Shown: positions 7,969 to 15,270, numbered from the stretch's first letter. The stretch is 64,000 bases of DNA from an uncultured Actinomycetes bacterium (GCA_963834825.1 CAWICZ010000010.1:47266-111265), one strand, 5' to 3'. Translations and numbers: made by a program. The notes: generated by a model not told the origin, from the sequence alone.

Positions 7969-7987
7969 CTACACTGCCCCTGCTCCT

Positions 7988-8061
<74 letters not shown>

Positions 8062-8415
8062 TCTCGTCTATCCGCTCAACCACGCCAAATCTGCTGCGGC
8101 CACATCGATGTCGGATCACCGTTCGTCGGGTCGTGGAACGGCTTTTGGAACGTTCATGGCGACAGACAGCGTCTCCATTCCGCACTCGGGGGGCTTTTCT
8201 GGTCGTTCGGGGGGTGTATTCCCGACCCCATCGGCGTAGTGTCGGAGCCGCTCGCGGGGTTTGTAGCAATTGAAGCGGCTGCGATCGGCGCAACGGTCAA
8301 GGCCGCTTTGGGCGGGCCTCGTGACACTCGGGATCCGGTAGGAGAAGCTCCTTAGCTGTTGCTGCATTGGCAGCGCTCACCTCCCGGCTGTGGCCAGTTC
8401 AACAGGGAGGGTGAG

Positions 8416-8796
8416 ATGACCGAACCAGTCGACCTCCCAGCTGCGGCTCCACCCGAGCCGCCGTACGGAGTTCCGCTGGAAGTGCCGGAAGCCGCACCAG
8501 CGAGGAAAGGCCACGGTCCGGGCCGACGGTTCGCGGAATGGCTCGGCACCAGAATCGGTGAGGTTCTCGGGGCGGTGGGTTTATTCCCGCTGCTCATGGC
8601 GACGATGGGCACCGGCATCTGGCTCCTCCTTGACGGAGAAGGCTACGAGTGGGTGTTCGCGGGCACCTTCGGGGTATTCGCCTTCATCGGGGCGTTCTTC
8701 CTCGCGGCAGGGTGGTTCGGGGTGCTGTTCTTCCGCTACTGGCCGCTGTTCGTCCTGGGCATAGGCGCCTTCATCGCCTGGAAGGCACTGACTTAG
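8416..8796 (+). CDS. Small polytopic membrane protein (126 aa), first gene of the island operon
   Basis: RBS AGGGAGGG sits 5 nt before the ATG at 8416. A Pro-rich cytosolic head is followed by three or four hydrophobic helices (VLGAVGLFPLLMATMGTGIWLLL, WVFAGTFGVFAFIGAFFLAAGWFGVLFF, WPLFVLGIGAFIAW). The stop lies 6 nt before the next start. Confidence 0.65.
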   Translation: MTEPVDLPAAAPPEPPYGVPLEVPEAAPARKGHGPGRRFAEWLGTRIGEVLGAVGLFPLLMATMGTGIWLLLDGEGYEWVFAGTFGVFAFIGAFFLAAGWFGVLFFRYWPLFVLGIGAFIAWKALT

Positions 8797-8802
8797 GACG
8801 CG

Positions 8803-11781
8803 ATGAAGGCTCGCACCGCCTTGGAGAAGACCTTCGAGCCATGGGCCGCCTGGAAGCCGTGCGCCGACAGCGACGCCTCCGTAGCTCTGGAGCGCCTGCG
8901 GGGCGAGGCGCCGCTCTTCTTTGCCGGCTCCGAGATCGTCGGCGCTCGCTGCGCCGACCTCTCCTTCTACGGCGCGCATCGCCTGCTCGACCTCAGCCTT
9001 GAGCGCCGCGGCAACGAGGAACGCGCCTTCGTCTTGCACGGCCCGGAAGAGACTCGCTGGCTCGACGGGAAGTCGGCTCCAATCCACGAGACCAACGAAG
9101 CCGAGTCGCTTGCATTGAGCGACGCCACTGTCCACGACTACGTCCGCTTCTTCTTCTACTTCGTGCGCAGTGACGACGGCCCCTTCGTCCTCATCGAGTC
9201 GCCCGACGAGATCGAAATCGACGACGACCCCGGCCAGCCCGAGCACGACGGGGAGTCGGCGGAAGCCGATGCCACGGAACTGCCCCAGCGTCTGGCAGCC
9301 ATCCGGAGCCGGGTCACTCCCCTAACGACTCGCACGATCGACGACGACGGCCGCTGGATCATCGACTGCTTCGTCGCCTACGCCGGCACGGTCTTCATGC
9401 CAACCCTGGCCGTCGGGTCGAGCGGCCTGGTCGACATGGAAGAGGAACGGCCGGCTGGAGAGCTCGACGGATTGACAGCTCCAGAGTGCGCCCCGCTCGA
9501 GCTCGCCCCGGTGTACGGAGGCCCCGGGTCCGGGTCGTACCGAGGCGGCCCTATTGTCTTGGAACGGCCGAACCAGCTGCCCGGTTTGCATCAGGACGGT
9601 CCCGTCATCGCCTTGGATCGCAATGGCGACGGTGAGGGAGCCACCCCGACGCTCCCCACGGAACAGGACGAGCGGGTGGTCGAGGTGCTCGACGACTCTG
9701 GAGAGTTGCCGCGTGATCGGGACGTGACCGAAGCGATCGTTTCCGTGCTTCTCGAAGACGCCATCCGAGAGCGGGACGGCGCCGGCGGGGGCGGTGACCT
9801 CCTGCTGCGGCACTTCAACTCTGAGACGGGTACGGACAAGCCGATCGAGCGGCTGGCCCGGATCGTGTCGAGCTCCGTTCCGGTGATCATCATCGAGTCG
9901 GACATCCCCTTCGTCGAGGACTTCGTCGTCGGGCTGATCGACGGTCCGAATGAAGCTGTCACTGCCGGCGACATCGTGCGAGCGAGCGTCGTCCCGGGGG
10001 ACGAGCTTCGCTGCCTGGTCGACTACGCGAGCACGGGGACGAGCTTGCACCTGATCTCGTTCCACGCCTACCGTGGGCTGTTCGACGCGGAGCGAACTGC
10101 GCACGAGCTCGCGCTTGGCGATGCAGCGGTGTTGATCGGATGCGAACGATCGTCCGACGTGCCGGAGCCACTGAGGAGGATTGCCGACCTCGTCCTCACC
10201 TTCCCCCGAATCGACCGCGGACGCTTCGCCCGCGTCTTCGAGCGTGTCTTCGGGGTCAAGCCGACGCCGGGCTGGGACGCCTCGGGCGCGGATTGGACTC
10301 GGTACCTCGTACCGGCCGACTTTCACACGCCGCGACGGCTTCGCCTCAACCCGGATCAGGCTTTGGAGCACCTGAGAAGGCGAATCGAGACTCGCCTCAA
10401 GAGCGTCACGCCCGATATCGGCCCGCGGCTGAGCGAGCTCCACGGCCTGGGCGAGGCTCGCCAGATCTGCGAGGACCTGATCGCCGACATCCGCGCCGCT
10501 CAAGCCGGCCGAATCCCGTGGACCGCCGTGGACAGGGGGATGCTCCTCGTCGGCCCGCCGGGAACCGGCAAGACGACGCTCGCCCGTGCGCTCGCGAAGG
10601 AGTGCGGCATCAAGTTCGTCGTCGCTAGCGCGGCCGGCTGGCAGTCGGCGGGCTACCTCGACTCTCATCTTCGCGCCATGCGCGCCGACTTCGCCGAAGC
10701 GCGTCGCCATGCCCCGGCGATCCTCTTCATCGACGAGATCGACGGCATCGGCAGTCGCGCGCAGCTGGGCGGAGACAACAGCGCCTCGTATCAGACCGAT
10801 GTCATCAACGCGCTCCTCGAGCAGGTTCAAGGAATCACGACCGTCGATCCCGTGATCGTGATCGGGGCGACCAACTATCCCGAGAACGTCGATCCCGCGC
10901 TCCGCCGGTCGGGACGGCTCGACCAGATCGTCGAGCTCCCGCTGCCCAACATCGCGAGCCTCGAGCAGATCTTCGAGTACTACCTCGGGTCGTATCGGGC
11001 CCGAAACGAGGTCGGGCGGGGCGTCAAGACGCGGCTCCTGGCAGAGCTGGGCCTGGGATCGACCGGTGCCGACGTGGAGCTCTTCGTGCGCGGCGCCGCC
11101 CGCCGCGCCCGCCGCGCCGGGCGGAAGATCAAGCAGGAAGACCTGCTGGCGGAGATCACTCGGCGCCCCCGTCGTCCGGACAGCGCTCCTCGGCTCGGAC
11201 CTGAAGAGATGCGGCGTGTGGCGGTCCACGAAGCCGGCCACGCCCTCGCCCGACTCACCAGCTCGACCCAGGGACAAGACCTCACCTTCGTAACGATCGT
11301 CCCACGCATGGACGGCTCGCTCGGCTTCGTCGCAGCGGTGCCGCCGGACGGCTACGTCTCCACCCGCCGCACGATGCTGGAGGAGCTCGAGACCGTGCTG
11401 GCCGGCCGAGCCGCCGAGGAGATCGTCTACGGCACCGACGACATCGGCGGCGGAGCCGGAGGGCCGAGCAGGACCAGCGACCTCGCAGTCGCGACCCGGC
11501 TGGCCGAGCTCATCGTCTGCCAGTCAGGGCTCGGCGACGACGACGCGCTGCACTGGACCTCGGAGCCGACGCCCGCCCAGGAGAAGCAGATCGGCGCGAT
11601 GCTCGGCAAGGCCTACGGCAACATCGTCGCGCGCCTCGAGGACCAGCGCGAGCTGCTCGACCGCATCGTCGAGGTCCTCGAGGAGAAGCAGGAGCTGAGC
11701 GGGACTGAGCTGCGTCAGCTGCTCGGGAAGAGCAACGGGGCCAGCGTAGGCGCGCAAGACCAAGCACAACCAGACGCATGA
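8803..11781 (+). CDS. FtsH-like AAA+ ATPase / M41 zinc metalloprotease lacking a transmembrane anchor, with a roughly 560-aa unassigned N-terminal region
   Basis: Motifs present: Walker A GPPGTGKT (10552-10575), Walker B ILFIDEID (10720-10743), SRH ATNYPENVDPALRRSGRLD, zinc motif HEAGH (11227-11241), FtsH-like IVPRMDGSLGF, AGRAAEE and SDLAVAT. No hydrophobic helix occurs in the first 580 aa. Residues around 355-485 (VPVIIIESD...VLIGCERSSDVPEPLRRIADLVLTFPRIDRGRF) look like a degenerate Walker-A-less AAA module. Confidence 0.85.
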   Translation: MKARTALEKTFEPWAAWKPCADSDASVALERLRGEAPLFFAGSEIVGARCADLSFYGAHRLLDLSLERRGNEERAFVLHGPEETRWLDGKSAPIHETNEAESLALSDATVHDYVRFFFYFVRSDDGPFVLIESPDEIEIDDDPGQPEHDGESAEADATELPQRLAAIRSRVTPLTTRTIDDDGRWIIDCFVAYAGTVFMPTLAVGSSGLVDMEEERPAGELDGLTAPECAPLELAPVYGGPGSGSYRGGPIVLERPNQLPGLHQDGPVIALDRNGDGEGATPTLPTEQDERVVEVLDDSGELPRDRDVTEAIVSVLLEDAIRERDGAGGGGDLLLRHFNSETGTDKPIERLARIVSSSVPVIIIESDIPFVEDFVVGLIDGPNEAVTAGDIVRASVVPGDELRCLVDYASTGTSLHLISFHAYRGLFDAERTAHELALGDAAVLIGCERSSDVPEPLRRIADLVLTFPRIDRGRFARVFERVFGVKPTPGWDASGADWTRYLVPADFHTPRRLRLNPDQALEHLRRRIETRLKSVTPDIGPRLSELHGLGEARQICEDLIADIRAAQAGRIPWTAVDRGMLLVGPPGTGKTTLARALAKECGIKFVVASAAGWQSAGYLDSHLRAMRADFAEARRHAPAILFIDEIDGIGSRAQLGGDNSASYQTDVINALLEQVQGITTVDPVIVIGATNYPENVDPALRRSGRLDQIVELPLPNIASLEQIFEYYLGSYRARNEVGRGVKTRLLAELGLGSTGADVELFVRGAARRARRAGRKIKQEDLLAEITRRPRRPDSAPRLGPEEMRRVAVHEAGHALARLTSSTQGQDLTFVTIVPRMDGSLGFVAAVPPDGYVSTRRTMLEELETVLAGRAAEEIVYGTDDIGGGAGGPSRTSDLAVATRLAELIVCQSGLGDDDALHWTSEPTPAQEKQIGAMLGKAYGNIVARLEDQRELLDRIVEVLEEKQELSGTELRQLLGKSNGASVGAQDQAQPDA

Positions 11782-11788
11782 GAAGGGA

Positions 11789-14146
11789 TTGCAGATGGCA
11801 ATGACAGCGACCGTTGGAGCGCCGCCCCCGCCTCCGCAAAGCCCCGTCGACCGCCTTAAGAAGGCCGTCGAGAACGGGGAGCGCTTCGTCGGTATCGACT
11901 ACACACCAACCTTCGACGCCGAGGTGATCCAAGGTTTGGTTCTCGGCGCCAGGGCCGACTGCGGCGTCCAGCTCGAATCCGTCACGATTGCCGGCAGCCT
12001 GAATCTCAAGGATGCGCGCGGTGCCTCAGGCGGGCCGTGCAACGCGTTGATTATGCACGACTGCATTCTGGAGGGTCCAGGCGCCGATGCTCCCACCGGC
12101 AGCCCCGGCATCGATGCCAGGCACAGCTACCTGCAGCGGCTCTCCCTCGTTAACTGTCGGTCGAACGGCCTAGATGTCTCGAGCGCGGTAATCGTGGGCG
12201 ACCTGAAGCTCGACGGGCTTGGCCCACTCGAGCGGTCTGTCGGCGAGATGTCGCGCGACGACGCCAGCGAAGAGGACGATGGCCAACAGCGATCTTGCTT
12301 GGTCAGGGCCCAAGGCGTGCGCATTGGAGGGTCACTCACGCTGCGCCGTGCGAGCCTCAGCTTGCCGCTGGGCGACGCGACAGCGGTTGTCGTTCCTCCC
12401 TCGCCCGATGCAGAGGACTCTGGGAATGTTTTCAAGCGATACGGGCTCGATCTCGAAGATGCTCAGATCAATGGATCGCTCACGCTAGGCCCTAAATTCA
12501 CTTCAGTGGGCGGAGTTTGCCTCAGCGGGGCCAGTATCGGCGGCACGCTGTCGATCGACGCGTCCGCCGCGCCGATCGAACGCCTCGACGCAACCACACT
12601 CAAAGTCGGCGGAGATTTGTCGCTTTCCGGATCGGTCTCGGTGGCCGATTTCTCAGGCAGCATGATCGATGGTCAGGTGGCACTCGGCGAGCAAGCCGCG
12701 GAAGGCGAGGAAACCAAGGTACCGCTTTACCTGACGAGCCTGAATGTCAGCGTCGCCGTCCTGAAGCTTGCCGACTCACGCGTTGGGCGCGGCCTCAGGG
12801 TGACACGGGTCGTTACCCCAACTTTCCCCGTCACAATCGATTGGAGCACAAAACCGCTCCGCATCCGCACCTTCCAGCTCGCCTGTTATCCCGGCTGGTT
12901 GCTGGCACAGGCTTTGTTCAAGCCGAAGTCCGGATCCGGTCTCGCGTTACTCGCCTTCTTGTATCAGCCTCGGTACGCGCCCGATGAGTCCCCCATCGTC
13001 GTCCTCGGAGGTCGATCGGACCCGATCCACGAGCTCAACGATCAGGGCTTCCTTGCGATCACCACCAGCGAACAAGCCGCGGAGTACCTCACTTTCTTCT
13101 GCACCCATATCTTGGGAGACGAGGGAGCGTTCATGAGAGCGTTCATGATCATCCCAGGCAGCGTCGACGTACGCCCGCGCGAGGACGGTCCAGGATGGCA
13201 CGCGACGGCGCAGGTTTCGTACGGTGCCGACCTCTTCAAAGCCGGCTTTCGGATCGACCCCTCCGGCGAAGTCGAGATGGTGAGCGATAAGCCGATCGGT
13301 AGGGCGCCAGCCAGCCCCCGTCCGCTCTACGCCCCTCCGATCAGCTGGCTTGAAGGAGACGGTTCCGACTGGCAGGACCGCCCGGACAAGCCGAACCCGG
13401 ACTGGCCGGTCTCGTCGCCTCTCGGCCCGAGCTCTGCTTGGTTTGAGCCCGAAACCGAGGGCGAAGACGGCGAAATCTGGAACGCCCTCCGGAAGAAACA
13501 AGAGACGCTAGGCCCCTCCATTGTCCTGCCGTGGCCCGGACGTCCTAGGCCGCGGATCGACCTGAAGGGTCTCAGAGTCTCCGGGCTCGACGACGACGAC
13601 GGAAGAGCTTGGTTTGCGGGTCGGAACTTCGACCTCGACAAGGCCGTGACCGGAGAGGTCGGAATAAGGCCGACGCTCCAGCTCATGCTCAGTGGGTTCG
13701 AGTACGACCGCATTAGCGACCGGCCGGACCCGACACCGCGGACCGATGTCTTGGGGCAGGAGTTGTCCGACAGTGACTCCCCAGCGCCTGAGGAGGCGGC
13801 GAAGGAACCCGCGAAGGAACGCTCACTCTTCCAAAGACTCCGTTCGTTCTTACATTCGGACCCAGCCGAGCGCTTGAAGGCCAGACGCTACTGGTTCAAG
13901 GCCCAATACAAGAAGTATCCACCGACCGAAGAGGAGTACCGTCCGCAGCCCCATGAACAGCTCGCCAGAGTCTGGCGGGCGGCGGGTCACCTCAAGAACG
14001 CTGACGACATCACAATCGACAAGCTTGAGTTGGAGAAGATGAAGCTCAAGCTCTCAAGGCGCGGTTTGTCGGCGGTGGCCGAAATTCTGGCATCACGTTT
14101 CGCAGCGGGGCGCGGCCGGTTTACATTTTCTTCGGGTTCGGGCTGA
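11789..14146 (+). CDS. Beta-helix-like repeat protein with a central domain paralogous to the protease N-terminus; C-terminal membrane module displaced by frameshifts
   Basis: The [IV]xGxLxL motif recurs seven times (IAGSLNL, IVGDLKL, IGGSLTL, INGSLTL, IGGTLSI, VGGDLSL, IDGQVAL). The C-terminal LSGFEYDRI...RRYWF...YRPQPHEQLARVWRAAGH matches, from memory, the actinobacterial pentapeptide-like 'membrane-associated oxidoreductase' family. The start is 7 nt after the upstream stop. Confidence 0.75.
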   Translation: MQMAMTATVGAPPPPPQSPVDRLKKAVENGERFVGIDYTPTFDAEVIQGLVLGARADCGVQLESVTIAGSLNLKDARGASGGPCNALIMHDCILEGPGADAPTGSPGIDARHSYLQRLSLVNCRSNGLDVSSAVIVGDLKLDGLGPLERSVGEMSRDDASEEDDGQQRSCLVRAQGVRIGGSLTLRRASLSLPLGDATAVVVPPSPDAEDSGNVFKRYGLDLEDAQINGSLTLGPKFTSVGGVCLSGASIGGTLSIDASAAPIERLDATTLKVGGDLSLSGSVSVADFSGSMIDGQVALGEQAAEGEETKVPLYLTSLNVSVAVLKLADSRVGRGLRVTRVVTPTFPVTIDWSTKPLRIRTFQLACYPGWLLAQALFKPKSGSGLALLAFLYQPRYAPDESPIVVLGGRSDPIHELNDQGFLAITTSEQAAEYLTFFCTHILGDEGAFMRAFMIIPGSVDVRPREDGPGWHATAQVSYGADLFKAGFRIDPSGEVEMVSDKPIGRAPASPRPLYAPPISWLEGDGSDWQDRPDKPNPDWPVSSPLGPSSAWFEPETEGEDGEIWNALRKKQETLGPSIVLPWPGRPRPRIDLKGLRVSGLDDDDGRAWFAGRNFDLDKAVTGEVGIRPTLQLMLSGFEYDRISDRPDPTPRTDVLGQELSDSDSPAPEEAAKEPAKERSLFQRLRSFLHSDPAERLKARRYWFKAQYKKYPPTEEEYRPQPHEQLARVWRAAGHLKNADDITIDKLELEKMKLKLSRRGLSAVAEILASRFAAGRGRFTFSSGSG

Positions 14147-14551
14147 AGCCGTGGCGCGCTACGGGAACCCTGGTCTTGTGGTGGCTGATTGGCGTGCTCG
14201 CGATTTTCGGGTCTCTTAAGCGCGGACGTGCTTAAGGCGGAGGCATCGGCCGTTACAACAGCTGTCGCGAGTGAGGAGCGCGTCGTCGTCGAGGAGGCGA
14301 CCGCCGGGGCAGAAACCGAGGAGATCCCATGCGGAGATCACATCAATGTGTTCGTCTACCCGCTCGACGTGATGATCCCGCTTCTCGACCTGCATCAGGA
14401 GTCGCGCTGCGACGTGTCGATCAAGAACTGTGGCTTCGGCGTGCTAAAGGGCTGTCATATGCCGTCTTGGCTGGTTAGATCATTTCTCGGGTTCATCCTC
14501 ACTGGTCCGGCGTCGTGCGGCGGCAGACCGAGAGATGAACCGCGACCCTAG
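14029..14551 (+). pseudogene. Out-of-frame C-terminal membrane module of the 11789 gene
   Basis: Frame 1 (14029-14235, no start codon) encodes PVYIFFGFGLKPWRATGTLVLWWLIGVLAIFG, the family GYGYRPWRA-plus-TM motif. Frame 2 (ORF 14189-14551, same frame as 11789-14146) encodes INVFVYPLDVMIPLLDLHQE, the family YxLDxxxPxxDLxQ motif. Two in-frame TGA codons separate the frame-2 parts. Confidence 0.5.
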
Positions 14552-14957
14552 GTCAGCGACACGGCGCTCCTGACAGCATCGTCCCGTCGCGAGGGCGGCC
14601 GGAAGAGCTGCTTCCGGTCGGCCTCGCGAGCCCGCCTTCGGCGTGCGGGTCGCGACCACCGTCTGTCGCCTCCACGTTCGGGGCACGGTCCGGTGATGCT
14701 GAGGCCAACCTCCTGGCCGACCGCCTCCTTGAGTAGCTCGTCGTAGTACGGCGCCAGGATTGCGTTCCTGATTCGCGTGCCGCCGATGTCCGCGAAGTGG
14801 CGCCGCATGAATCCCGCCTGCTGACAGCCGTTCTGGAACGCTCGTGGAACGCGCGGCGGCAACCGGTGGTGAATACCGGCGAAGGCCAGGACCGCGAAAG
14901 CCGCGCACGAGCGACCAACGGAGCCGGCGAGAACGCGCGGCAAACCATGGCGCGGAA

Positions 14958-15003
14958 CTGTCCCGCCGGAGGTCGCGGGTTCGAGTCCCGTCGCTCCCGT
15001 CTC
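14958..15003 (+). repeat. Copy of the tRNA-Asp 3-prime half (att-like direct repeat 2)
   Basis: This 46-nt stretch aligns to 8020-8065 with one mismatch (14963 C versus 8025 A). Positions 14964-15003 are identical to 8026-8065. No acceptor or D arm lies upstream. Confidence 0.85.
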
Positions 15004-15270
15004 TCGAAGTGCCTGCAAATAGAGTTTGGTTGTCTGTCTGGACGCGGTGCTCCGGCTCTGTGGCCCAAACCCGTGGCCCAAACGGTCGAAGAGAATGCCT
15101 GCAAAACTGGCATTTCGAGCATAGGTACGTGTCCAGGCCGCACAACGCAAATCGGTTCACGAGCACGCTCAGCGGTCCCCGATGCGCGTGCCGGCGAACG
15201 TCCCGGGTTCACTCGGCCGGGACGTTCGCTCTAGGAGCGCGTGACGCCAATTGGAGCTCAAAACGTGACG

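What the first reader, a model, noticed from the sequence alone, without database searches (positions are those of the whole stretch)
8416..14551. tRNA-adjacent three-gene operon: small membrane protein, anchorless FtsH-like AAA+/M41 protease with a large unassigned N-region, and a repeat/membrane-module protein
Three same-strand genes are packed with 6-7 nt gaps, directly downstream of tRNA-Asp and inside att-like repeats.
- The middle protein has every catalytic hallmark of FtsH: GPPGTGKT, ILFIDEID, an arginine-finger region, HEAGH and GRAAEE.
- It lacks the two N-terminal TM helices that define FtsH. Instead it carries about 560 aa that I cannot assign, including what looks like a Walker-A-less second AAA module.
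- The missing anchor could be supplied in trans by the 126-aa polytopic protein encoded 6 nt upstream, giving a split-FtsH arrangement.
- The third protein combines beta-helix-like repeats with a membrane module typical of an uncharacterised actinobacterial family.

An ATPase-protease, a membrane protein and a repeat-containing sensor-like protein inside a tRNA island fit the general pattern of conflict or defence systems. I know of no described system with this composition.
Basis: partly seen in the sequence, partly recalled or inferred. Interest (0 to 1): 0.8.

Follow-up and report, generated by a model that had tools for sequence, protein, structure and literature searches.

The report
Anchorless FtsH-like protease with domain-sharing partner
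A small, partly decayed island next to tRNA-Asp encodes a soluble FtsH-type ATP-dependent protease and a repeat protein that share an unannotated domain also found on bacterial NLR-like immune proteins, which points to an undescribed protease-based conflict module rather than a split housekeeping FtsH.

Summary
The sequence features are largely as described, with one correction. tRNA-Asp, a 53-nt duplicate of its 3' half, three tightly packed same-strand genes and an FtsH-like protein without TM helices are all present. Gene 3 is not one ORF to 14551. It stops at 14146, and its membrane module is split by several indels and a stop codon.

The 992-aa protein belongs to a conserved, uncharacterised family (at least 120 clusters; Actinomycetota, Gemmatimonadota, Gammaproteobacteria). 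Its order is "domain X", disordered linker, degenerate AAA+, active AAA+, M41.

- Gene 3 carries a homologue of domain X (hhalign 99.4%).
- Domain X is widespread (2585 cluster representatives) and has no Pfam, NCBIfam, PDB or BFVD relative.
- It is fused to TIR-NB-ARC-TPR, STAND-WD40, CHAT and TPR proteins.
- The protease plus gene-3 pair recurs in four other independent loci, plus one remnant.
- The small membrane protein does not recur, so the split-FtsH idea is not supported.
- Neighbours elsewhere vary and include Patatin, CHAT, TIR and many housekeeping genes.

Best reading: a conflict-type module in which domain X couples a soluble AAA+ protease to partner proteins. Here it is a relic. 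The function is inferred, not shown.

The parts
7987..8063 (+). tRNA-Asp (GTC), the integration target. Its 3' half (8013-8065) is the left copy of the direct repeat.
   Evidence: ARAGORN; Rfam tRNA 73 bits; repeat D3.
8416..8796 (+). g1: 126-aa protein with a Pro-rich N-terminus and 3 predicted TM helices. It is lineage-specific and not part of the conserved module.
   Evidence: ORF and GGGAGGG Shine-Dalgarno-like sequence before the ATG. Hydropathy. No Pfam, NCBIfam or PADLOC hit. Next to the protease only in WIN and L036. 6 synonymous against 11 nonsynonymous differences versus L036.
8803..11781 (+). g2: 992-aa soluble FtsH-like protease, in the order domain X, linker, degenerate AAA+, active AAA+, M41.
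   Evidence: At least 120 homologous clusters share the architecture.
8830..9507 (+). Domain X of g2 (aa ~10-235): two alpha+beta subdomains. No Pfam or NCBIfam model matches it.
   Evidence: AF2 pLDDT 93.8, pTM 0.90. No significant PDB or BFVD structural neighbour. No PDB sequence relative. 2585 cluster representatives carry it.
9517..9702 (+). Low-confidence, indel-rich acidic linker (aa 239-300).
   Evidence: pLDDT below 50. The indels versus L036 are concentrated here.
9703..10437 (+). Degenerate AAA+ module (aa 301-545) without a Walker A motif.
   Evidence: Foldseek hits to RFC, RuvB and TRIP13, E ~5e-4. No GxxGxGK[ST] before aa ~475 in any homologue. Conserved IIESDIPFVED.
10540..10944 (+). 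Active AAA+ ATPase core (aa 580-714), with Walker A GPPGTGKT, Walker B ILFIDEID, ATNY and arginine fingers RRSGRLD. The pore loop is non-canonical (WQSAGYLD).
   Evidence: Pfam PF00004 E 1.4e-34; conservation; alignment to Cdc48/p97 and FtsH.
11200..11715 (+). Peptidase M41 domain (aa 800-971) with HEAGH and GRAAEE.
   Evidence: Pfam PF01434 E 6.5e-21. Motifs more than 90% conserved.
11789..14146 (+). g3: 783/785-aa ORF, with the more likely start at ATG 11795 after GAAGGGA. An N-terminal repeat-like region is followed by a domain X homologue and an acidic linker. It is truncated before its membrane module by the TGA at 14144-14146.
   Evidence: Homologues are 969-1202 aa.
12857..13315 (+). 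Domain X homologue inside g3 (aa ~355-507 counted from 11795).
   Evidence: tblastn of g3 hits the N-terminus of the protease in nearly every locus. HMM E 2e-16 to 5e-29. hhalign 99.4%, E 5.8e-22, 139 columns.
14070..14538 (+). Decayed 3' end of g3. It holds remnants of TM1 (FGFGLKPWRATGTLVLWWLIGVLAIFG), the conserved loop (CGD...YPLDVMIPLLDLHQESRC) and TM2 (...WSGVVRRQTER), spread over three frames and including an in-frame TAG.
   Evidence: Three-frame translation. tblastn with P0121 and P0127. Nucleotide alignment with L033: 84% identity with 18 gap positions. Intact homologues have 2 C-terminal TM helices.
14951..15003 (+). Right copy of the tRNA-Asp 3'-half direct repeat (att-like). It marks the island boundary.
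   Evidence: the repeat finder D3: 53 nt, 92% identical. No tRNA is called here.

Best explanation
The locus is a relic tRNA-Asp genomic island of about 6.9 kb, bounded by att-like repeats and lacking an integrase. Its conserved core is a two-gene module.

- **g2** is a soluble, presumably hexameric, FtsH-type AAA+ unfoldase-protease. Its TM anchor is replaced by domain X, a disordered linker and an inactive AAA+ ring module.
- **g3** in intact relatives is a roughly 1000-aa protein. It has an N-terminal repeat domain, its own copy of domain X, a linker and a C-terminal two-helix membrane module.

Proposed mechanism (inferred): domain X is a non-enzymatic coupling or recognition domain. It works like the effector-associated domains of prokaryotic NLR-type conflict systems. 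It brings the ATP-dependent protease together with X-bearing partners. These partners are g3-type membrane proteins, STAND-WD40-X NTPases and X-pentapeptide proteins. The protease would then be either recruited to, or act on (unfold, cleave, activate), the partner in response to a trigger.

In this genome the membrane module of g3 is disrupted, so the module is probably no longer intact. g1 is a lineage-specific passenger.

Shown: the architecture, the conservation of catalytic motifs, the X homology between g2 and g3, the recurrence of the pair, and the distribution of X. Inferred: X-X contact, the direction of action, and any defence phenotype.
For: - **Architecture and motifs:**
- **Shared domain:** (hhalign 99.4%).
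- **Pair recurrence:** a g2 homologue lies directly upstream of a g3 homologue in L002 (gap 14 nt), L033/P0123, L041/P0121 and P0127, where the genes overlap by 4 nt. L034 keeps a 41-aa remnant of the g2 C-terminus in front of g3, among transposase and integrase genes.
- **Other X-bearing partners next to g2 homologues:** in L004 an nSTAND1-WD40-X protein (2259 aa) lies immediately upstream. Its X is 49% identical to the protease's X. In L078 an X-pentapeptide protein (1230 aa) lies 44 nt downstream.
- **Domain X company elsewhere:** TIR-NB-ARC-TPR-X with one to three copies, X-STAND-TPR, CHAT-X, TPR-X and ankyrin.
- **Further neighbours of g2 homologues:** Patatin (8 loci), CHAT (at least 6), TIR (2) and TerB/DUF697 (3).
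- **Distribution and mobility:** the family is patchy across three phyla. The g1-g2 block appears at 92-94% nucleotide identity in a different context. The island genes have lower GC and GC3 than their flanks.
Against: - There is no experimental or direct evidence of defence. PADLOC finds no system.
- The family is absent from viral contigs and from PLSDB plasmids.
- Most g2 homologues (about 90% of roughly 60 loci with downstream sequence) have no X-bearing neighbour. Many neighbours are housekeeping genes such as aldehyde dehydrogenase, MFS transporters, GlutR and rhamnosidase.
- g3 homologues also occur without the protease (L035/P0126 and P0125).
- X is about 190 aa and can occur in tandem copies, unlike the small effector-associated domains (EADs).
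- Adjacent X copies are not each other's closest relatives (L004: 49% against 51-52% to other proteases; g2 versus g3: 26%).
- The pore loop is non-canonical, so substrate translocation is unproven.
- The local copy of g3 is broken.
Confidence: 0.45

Rival explanations
1. Housekeeping paralogue. g2 is a cytosolic FtsH-type quality-control or regulatory protease, and its N-terminal domain X simply binds endogenous substrates or adaptors. The neighbouring genes, including g3, are incidental or are ordinary substrates.
For: - g2 homologues sit in chromosomal contexts with many metabolic neighbours.
- They are found as single genes in Mycobacterium parmense and Mycolicibacterium.
- They are absent from plasmids and phages.
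- Catalytic motifs are under purifying selection. There are 69 synonymous against 64 nonsynonymous differences versus L036, giving my rough dN/dS estimate of about 0.3.
Against: - The distribution across three phyla is patchy, and most relatives within each lack the gene.
- Domain X is otherwise fused to TIR, NB-ARC/STAND and CHAT modules, not to housekeeping enzymes.
- Adjacency to X-bearing partners and to Patatin, CHAT or TIR genes recurs.
- The gene sits in an att-flanked island here and in a different context at 92% nucleotide identity.
Confidence: 0.25
2. Parallel-sensor model. Domain X is a ligand or invader-protein sensor rather than a homotypic coupler. g2 and g3 each sense the same trigger independently through their own X, and they act as two separate effectors: a protease and a membrane protein.
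For: - X sits at the C-terminus of TIR-NB-ARC-TPR and STAND-WD40 proteins, the position usually occupied by sensors, sometimes in 2-4 tandem copies.
- Conserved polar and aromatic residues (N 88%, E 82%, Y 99% of 179 instances) are compatible with a binding site.
- Adjacent X copies are not specially co-related.
Against: - X is also N-terminal to STAND modules and fused to the effector CHAT, which are positions typical of adaptors.
- The recurrent same-operon pairing of two X proteins is what the homotypic-adaptor rule predicts (PMC7159879, section 30).
- No ligand is known.
Confidence: 0.2
3. Split FtsH. The 126-aa polytopic protein g1 supplies in trans the membrane anchor that g2 lacks.
For: - The two genes are 6 nt apart.
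- g1 has 3 predicted TM helices.
- The g1-g2 block is kept together in L036.
Against: - g1 is absent upstream of the protease in all other loci examined.
- g1 homologues P0282-P0284 occur without any g2 homologue nearby.
- L036 is too close (92-94% nucleotide identity) to count as independent conservation.
- g1 shows no clear purifying selection (6 synonymous against 11 nonsynonymous differences).
- If any partner anchors g2, the conserved candidate is g3, which has two TM helices and a shared domain.
Confidence: 0.04

Closest known systems
Canonical FtsH (MEROPS M41 AAA+ membrane protease; TIGR01241)
   Same: - A single active classical AAA+ module is followed by an M41 zinc-protease domain.
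- Walker A and B, sensor 1, arginine fingers, HEXXH and the GRAAEE region are conserved.
- It aligns to the T. maritima FtsH structure 2ce7 over 408 residues.
   Different: - It lacks the N-terminal TM helices and periplasmic domain.
- It has an about 560-aa N-terminal extension: domain X, a linker and a degenerate AAA+ module.
- The pore loop is non-canonical.
- It scores 203.6 bits against the 600-bit equivalog cut-off.
Tandem FtsH-type AAA+ protein of the 'FtsH ternary systems' (Kaur, Burroughs, Iyer, Aravind 2020, eLife, PMC7159879, section 21)
   Same: - An inactive N-terminal FtsH-type AAA+ copy lies in front of an active one.
- 'An additional N-terminal domain seen only in these proteins' is reported.
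- The setting is a conflict system.
- It occurs in actinobacteria and proteobacteria.
   Different: - Those systems are defined by linked MoxR and vWA genes. None is seen in the window island, in six Pfam-annotated contexts or among immediate neighbours.
- The section read does not mention an M41 peptidase domain.
- Sequence identity between the two families was not tested, because no sequences were at hand.
Effector-associated domains (EADs) as homotypic coupling adaptors (PMC7159879, section 30)
   Same: - One copy sits at a terminus of a core or effector protein, and a second copy sits on a protein encoded by the adjacent gene.
- The domain is non-enzymatic.
- It is fused to STAND, CHAT (caspase-like) and TIR contexts.
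   Different: - X is about 190 aa with two alpha+beta subdomains, whereas EADs are small and mostly alpha-helical.
- It can occur in 2-4 tandem copies.
- Adjacent copies are not closer to each other than to others.
- The interaction is untested.
ATPase-plus-protease anti-phage systems such as IetAS (PADLOC IetA models; NCBIfam 'anti-phage ATPase IteA')
   Same: The classical-clade AAA+ ATPase of g2 scores E 5e-23 against PADLOC IetA and 9e-21 against NF042959. The general logic of pairing an ATPase with a protease is shared. That IetS is a separate serine protease is my own knowledge and was not tested here.
   Different: - Only the AAA+ core matches, and it is far below the cut-off (74 bits against 510).
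- The protease here is a fused M41 metalloprotease.
- There is no IetS-like gene.
Bacterial NLR-like STAND proteins (TIR-NB-ARC-TPR, nSTAND1-WD40)
   Same: They carry the same domain X at a terminus (P0134, P0153, P0161, P0139, L004 neighbour).
   Different: g2 has no STAND NTPase. Its ATPase is a classical AAA+ unfoldase fused to a protease.

Membership tests
Canonical FtsH | Two N-terminal transmembrane helices flanking a periplasmic domain | tested here: not met
   No 19-residue window qualifies as a TM helix. The top two windows are beta strands in the AF2 model. The N-terminus folds as globular domain X.
Canonical FtsH | Classical AAA+ module with Walker A/B and the second region of homology with arginine fingers | tested here: met
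   PF00004 E 1.4e-34. GPPGTGKT, ILFIDEID, ATNY and DPALRRSGRLD are more than 90% conserved.
Canonical FtsH | M41 zinc metalloprotease domain with HEXXH | tested here: met
   PF01434 E 6.5e-21. HEAGH and GRAAEE are more than 90% conserved. It aligns to 2ce7 through the protease domain.
Canonical FtsH | Scores above the curated equivalog cut-off (TIGR01241, 600 bits) | tested here: not met
   203.6 bits.
Canonical FtsH | Pore-1 loop with an aromatic-hydrophobic-Gly motif | tested here: inconclusive
   The aligned segment reads WQSAGYLD (family consensus WQSAG.LD). W613 is conserved, but the canonical position is variable.
FtsH ternary system (Kaur et al. 2020) | Protein with tandem FtsH-type AAA+ domains, the N-terminal copy inactive | tested here: met
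   Residues 301-545 are a degenerate AAA+ module without Walker A. Residues 575-790 are an active AAA+ module.
FtsH ternary system (Kaur et al. 2020) | Linked MoxR-type AAA+ and vWA genes | tested here: not met
   The island holds only g1-g3, with no such Pfam hits. No MoxR or vWA gene appears in the annotated contexts, or among the top neighbour families.
EAD-type homotypic coupling adaptor | The same domain on a core or effector protein and on a protein encoded by the adjacent gene | tested here: met
   g2/g3 in five independent loci, the L004 STAND-WD40-X neighbour and the L078 X-pentapeptide neighbour.
EAD-type homotypic coupling adaptor | Small domain without enzymatic features | tested here: inconclusive
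   The domain is about 190 aa. There is no catalytic-type motif (the conserved residues are N, E, Y and hydrophobics). It has no structural relative.
EAD-type homotypic coupling adaptor | Copies in adjacent genes are closer to each other than to other copies | tested here: not met
   In L004 the identity to the adjacent copy is 49%, against 51-52% to the X of other proteases. The X domains of g2 and g3 are only 26% identical.
EAD-type homotypic coupling adaptor | Physical homotypic interaction | not testable with these tools
   No multimer prediction or experiment was available.
tRNA-integrated genomic island | Direct repeat of the tRNA 3' end at the distal boundary | tested here: met
   8013-8065 versus 14951-15003: 53 nt, 92% identical.
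tRNA-integrated genomic island | Integrase gene | tested here: not met
   There is no integrase ORF, and no Pfam hit in any frame of 14480-15212.
tRNA-integrated genomic island | Composition differs from the flanks | tested here: met
   GC is 0.63-0.65 over 12-15 kb, against 0.68-0.73 upstream. GC3 of g1, g2 and g3 is 0.77, 0.84 and 0.74, against 0.86-0.94 in the flanking genes.
Known anti-phage systems (PADLOC-DB v2) | Proteins match a system's component models | tested here: not met
   g1 and g3 have no hit. g2 hits only generic AAA models of IetA, TRIP13 and others.
Pentapeptide-repeat proteins (g3 N-terminal region) | Significant match to pentapeptide repeat models | tested here: inconclusive
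   The window g3 has none. The L002 homologue gives Pentapeptide_3 E 0.0037, P0129 gives 0.17 and the L078 partner gives 2e-5. Self-BLAST finds no repeats.

The most novel reading that the evidence does not exclude
Domain X is a previously undescribed, widespread coupling or sensing domain of prokaryotic NLR-like immunity. It is found in at least 2585 cluster representatives at 50% identity and has no fold relative. The X-AAA'-AAA-M41 proteins would then be a new class of ATP-dependent proteolytic effector or regulator recruited through it. That would make them the first FtsH/M41-type protease module in anti-invader defence. g3-type membrane proteins would act as one of several interchangeable X-bearing partners.
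Probability: 0.3. Interest if true: 0.8.

Novelty: new variant of a known kind. Interest (0 to 1): 0.6.

Why it matters
If the reading is right, three things follow.

- It adds an energy-dependent metalloprotease of the FtsH type to the effector and regulator repertoire of bacterial conflict systems. So far that repertoire is dominated by caspase-like, Lon, trypsin and S8 proteases.
- It defines a large unannotated domain family, with a high-confidence model and no known fold relative. The family links STAND/TIR/CHAT proteins to such proteases.
- It gives a concrete, testable pair: g2+g3 from an intact locus such as L002 or the P0127 contig.

For AAA+ protease biology, it is a natural example of an FtsH core that has swapped its membrane anchor for a soluble recognition domain and an inactive second ring.

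If the housekeeping reading is right instead, it is simply an uncharacterised soluble FtsH paralogue of soil Actinomycetota.

Tried and rejected
- **Library searches.** PADLOC, Pfam and NCBIfam on g1 and g3 returned nothing. NCBIfam on intact g3 homologues also returned nothing. My recollection that the C-terminal membrane module belongs to a common Streptomyces 'pentapeptide/oxidoreductase' family therefore remains untested.
- **Structure searches.** Foldseek with the 550-aa model was dominated by the AAA+ part, so domain X was remodelled alone. The PDB gave a best E of 0.03 with TM-scores below 0.3 (cystatin, Cu-amine-oxidase N-domains, NTF2-like). BFVD and a PDB sequence-profile search gave nothing significant.
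- **Mobile elements.** The family was not found in viral contigs or in PLSDB plasmids for g2 or g3.
- **Integrase.** A search for a remnant in 14480-15212 found none.
- **Transcription signals.** Promoter and terminator scans were at chance level.
- **tRNA adjacency.** It is not a family trait.
- **g1 as a conserved partner.** Rejected.
- **Gene calling.** My first GC3-threshold gene caller missed low-GC3 genes, including g3. I replaced it with a self-trained codon model.
- **Internal repeats.** Self-BLAST of the g3 N-terminus found none.
- **Literature.** Searches for FtsH/M41 in a phage-defence context found nothing beyond Kaur et al. 2020.
- **Independence of loci.** L041 and P0121 are essentially the same sequence and count as one locus.

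Full report
**1. What is in the sequence**

The window is about 68% G+C. tRNA-Asp(GTC) lies at 7987-8063. Its 3' half is duplicated 6.9 kb downstream: 8013-8065 versus 14951-15003, 53 nt with 92% identity. This is the classic signature of site-specific integration into a tRNA gene.

Between the repeats lie three same-strand ORFs:
- g1, 8416-8796 (126 aa)
- g2, 8803-11781 (992 aa)
- g3, 11789-14146 (785 aa; the ATG at 11795 behind GAAGGGA is the likelier start)

The gaps between them are 6 and 7 nt. The flanking genes are ordinary: a SnoaL-like protein, a CvpA-trypsin fusion and a MetH-like protein upstream, and a sulfatase downstream. The island is slightly poorer in GC and GC3 than its flanks. 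No integrase or recognisable remnant is present. Promoter and terminator scans are at chance level.

**2. Correction to the observation**

Gene 3 does not run to 14551. A TGA stops it at 14144-14146.

Intact homologues (P0121, P0127, L002) continue for about 180 more residues. These form a module of two TM helices separated by a conserved loop, CGD...YP(L/I)DVMIPL(I/L)DLRQE.RC.

In the window these pieces are all recognisable but lie in three different frames. There are at least three frameshifts and an in-frame TAG inside the last helix. The true stop would be about 14538.

g2 (2979 nt) and the first 2350 nt of g3 are intact and align end to end with homologues. A cluster of lesions within about 450 nt therefore looks like real decay rather than the background error of the assembly. 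Related assemblies are indel-prone, however (L014, L025-27, L029, L031, L036). Only the reads can settle the question.

**3. The protease (g2)**

- Pfam finds AAA (aa 580-714) and Peptidase_M41 (aa 800-971), and nothing in aa 1-560.
- NCBIfam FtsH scores 203.6 bits against a cut-off of 600.
- The C-terminal half aligns with the T. maritima FtsH structure 2ce7 across both domains (E 3e-54).
- In an alignment of 111 family members, more than 90% conserve Walker A, Walker B, sensor 1, the arginine fingers, HEAGH and GRAAEE. The pore-1 loop is non-canonical (WQSAG.LD).
- There is no TM helix.

AlphaFold2 on aa 1-550 (pLDDT 76.7) gives three regions:
- a confident globular domain at aa ~10-235
- a disordered acidic linker at aa 239-300
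- an alpha/beta domain at aa 301-545

Foldseek matches the last of these to RFC, RuvB and TRIP13 AAA+ modules. No Walker A motif precedes the active one in any of 120 homologues.

**4. The family**

A search with aa 1-560 finds at least 148 protein clusters. Nearly all are 850-1000 aa with the same architecture.

Thirty-one species-representative genomes carry it. They include Acidimicrobiia and other Actinomycetota, Mycolicibacterium, Pseudonocardiales, Gemmatimonadaceae and Steroidobacteraceae/Gammaproteobacteria. Forty-six metagenome contigs also carry it.

None of 2.9 million viral contigs carries it, and no PLSDB plasmid does.

**5. The new link: a shared domain**

tblastn with g3 hit the N-terminus of the protease in almost every locus.
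- A profile of g2 aa 40-235 finds g3 (E 2e-16) and its L002 homologue.
- A broader profile raises this to 5e-29 and covers every g3 homologue.
- hhalign between the two family alignments gives 99.4% probability, E 5.8e-22, over 139 columns (g2 aa 46-223 against g3 aa 355-507).

I call this domain X.

Modelled alone, it is very confident (pLDDT 93.8, pTM 0.90). It consists of two helix-plus-antiparallel-sheet subdomains.

It has no significant structural neighbour in the PDB (best E 0.03, TM-score below 0.3) or in BFVD. It has no PDB sequence relative and no Pfam or NCBIfam model.

**6. Domain X is widespread and keeps telling company**

An exhaustive profile search of 1.84 billion cluster representatives finds 2585 proteins at E ≤ 1e-3, and 1723 at E ≤ 1e-10. 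They range from 100 to 2270 aa. X can be N-terminal, internal or C-terminal, in up to four copies.

Of the 147 best new representatives, only 12 are FtsH-like. Pfam on samples shows these architectures:
- TIR-NB-ARC-TPR-X (P0134 with three copies, P0153, P0161)
- X-STAND-TPR (P0139)
- CHAT-X (P0185)
- TPR-X
- ankyrin-containing proteins

Across 179 instances the conserved residues are mostly hydrophobic, plus N (88%), E (82%) and Y (99%). This does not look like a catalytic constellation.

**7. Gene neighbourhoods**

The g3 family is rare: 9 clusters among 5.8 billion. Of eight independent g3 loci examined:
- Five have the FtsH-like gene directly upstream: WIN, L002, L033/P0123, L041/P0121 and P0127.
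- One (L034) keeps a 41-aa remnant of the protease C-terminus among transposase and integrase genes.
- Two have none (L035/P0126 and P0125).

Seen from the protease side, only about 10% of some 60 loci have an X-bearing neighbour. Besides the g3 type, two others stand out:
- In L004 (Mycolicibacterium vinylchloridicum) an nSTAND1-WD40-X protein of 2259 aa lies immediately upstream.
- In L078 an X-pentapeptide protein of 1230 aa lies 44 nt downstream.

Other recurrent neighbours are Patatin (8 loci), CHAT (at least 6), TIR (2), TerB/DUF697 (3), pentapeptide proteins and NHL. Many plainly metabolic genes also occur.

**8. The small membrane protein (g1)**

g1 has three predicted TM helices. It precedes the protease only in the window and in L036. 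L036 shares window positions 8180-11737 at 92-94% nucleotide identity, but in another context with no tRNA and no g3.

Its four other homologues have no protease gene nearby. Substitutions versus L036 are 6 synonymous to 11 nonsynonymous.

The split-FtsH hypothesis is therefore not supported. If any partner anchors the protease to the membrane, the conserved candidate is g3.

**9. Interpretation**

The shown facts fit the organisational grammar that Kaur et al. (2020, PMC7159879) describe for NTP-dependent conflict systems.

Their 'FtsH ternary systems' contain a protein with an inactive plus an active FtsH-type AAA+ domain and an extra N-terminal domain (section 21). Those systems are defined by linked MoxR and vWA genes, which are absent here.

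Their 'EAD-coupling principle' (section 30) has the same small domain on a core protein and on an adjacent-gene effector, predicted to interact homotypically. This matches the g2/g3, L004 and L078 arrangements. X is larger than an EAD, however, can be tandem, and fails the test that adjacent copies are closest to each other.

I therefore propose that X works like an EAD without filing it as one. An alternative is that X is a shared sensor. A housekeeping role for the protease cannot be excluded. No phenotype or interaction has been shown.

**10. Verdict**

- The local copy is probably a relic, with no integrase and a broken g3.
- The value of the finding lies in the family-level picture. It comprises an uncharacterised anchorless FtsH-like protease family and a large unannotated domain that ties it to NLR-like, TIR and CHAT proteins.

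Noticed in passing
L004:3905-10684 (Mycolicibacterium vinylchloridicum NZ_JACBJQ010000005.1): A 2259-aa protein lies immediately upstream of the FtsH-like gene. It has an nSTAND1 NTPase, about 1200 aa of WD40 repeats and a C-terminal domain X. That X is 49% identical to the X of the adjacent protease.
   Followed up: partly
L036:396-3916 (ena:ERZ25039591 contig_75226) versus window 8180-11737: The g1-g2 block recurs at 92-94% nucleotide identity in a different genomic context: no tRNA, no g3 and an ABM-domain gene downstream. g1 carries a 66-nt insertion and g2 is split by frameshifts. This suggests recent movement of the block.
   Followed up: partly
L034:7708-7830 and 8001-10961: A g3 homologue is preceded by a 41-aa remnant of the protease C-terminus. 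Integrase, DDE transposase and Mu-transposase genes surround it. The protease appears to have been destroyed by mobile-element insertion.
   Followed up: partly
L035:4572-7152 (minus strand), next to the g3 homologue at 8001-11045: A divergently oriented pair sits beside a stand-alone g3 homologue: a 399-aa classical AAA ATPase with AAA_lid_3 and a DUF6414 protein. A DNA methylase gene is also nearby. It may be another ATPase-based conflict pair.
   Followed up: no
L086:1-8413: A g1-like small membrane protein lies next to N6_N4 methyltransferase, ResIII helicase and AAA_16 genes, which is a restriction/defence-like context. It is followed by 3.6 kb with no called gene.
   Followed up: no
window 11789-14146 and L002:12834-16121: g3-type genes have markedly lower GC3 (0.72-0.74) than the protease gene just upstream (0.84-0.88), in both loci. 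This hints at a different evolutionary history or relaxed selection.
   Followed up: no
window 14540-14950: About 410 nt lie between the decayed end of g3 and the right att-like repeat. This stretch has no ORF with any Pfam match. It is where an integrase would be expected.
   Followed up: partly
window 10630-10660 (g2 aa ~610-620): The pore-1 loop region reads WQSAGYLD in place of the canonical aromatic-hydrophobic-Gly motif. W613 is more than 90% conserved in the family, while the canonical position varies.
   Followed up: partly
L008:5759-9658: A 1299-aa protein lies upstream of a protease homologue. It combines an aromatic amino acid lyase, a TPR-S sensor and a nucleotide cyclase. A TIR-DUF4145-zinc-ribbon protein lies downstream.
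   Followed up: no
P0134 (1691 aa, metagenomic representative): This TIR-NB-ARC-TPR protein ends in three tandem copies of domain X. It is the strongest hit of the domain X profile (E 1.8e-225).
   Followed up: partly
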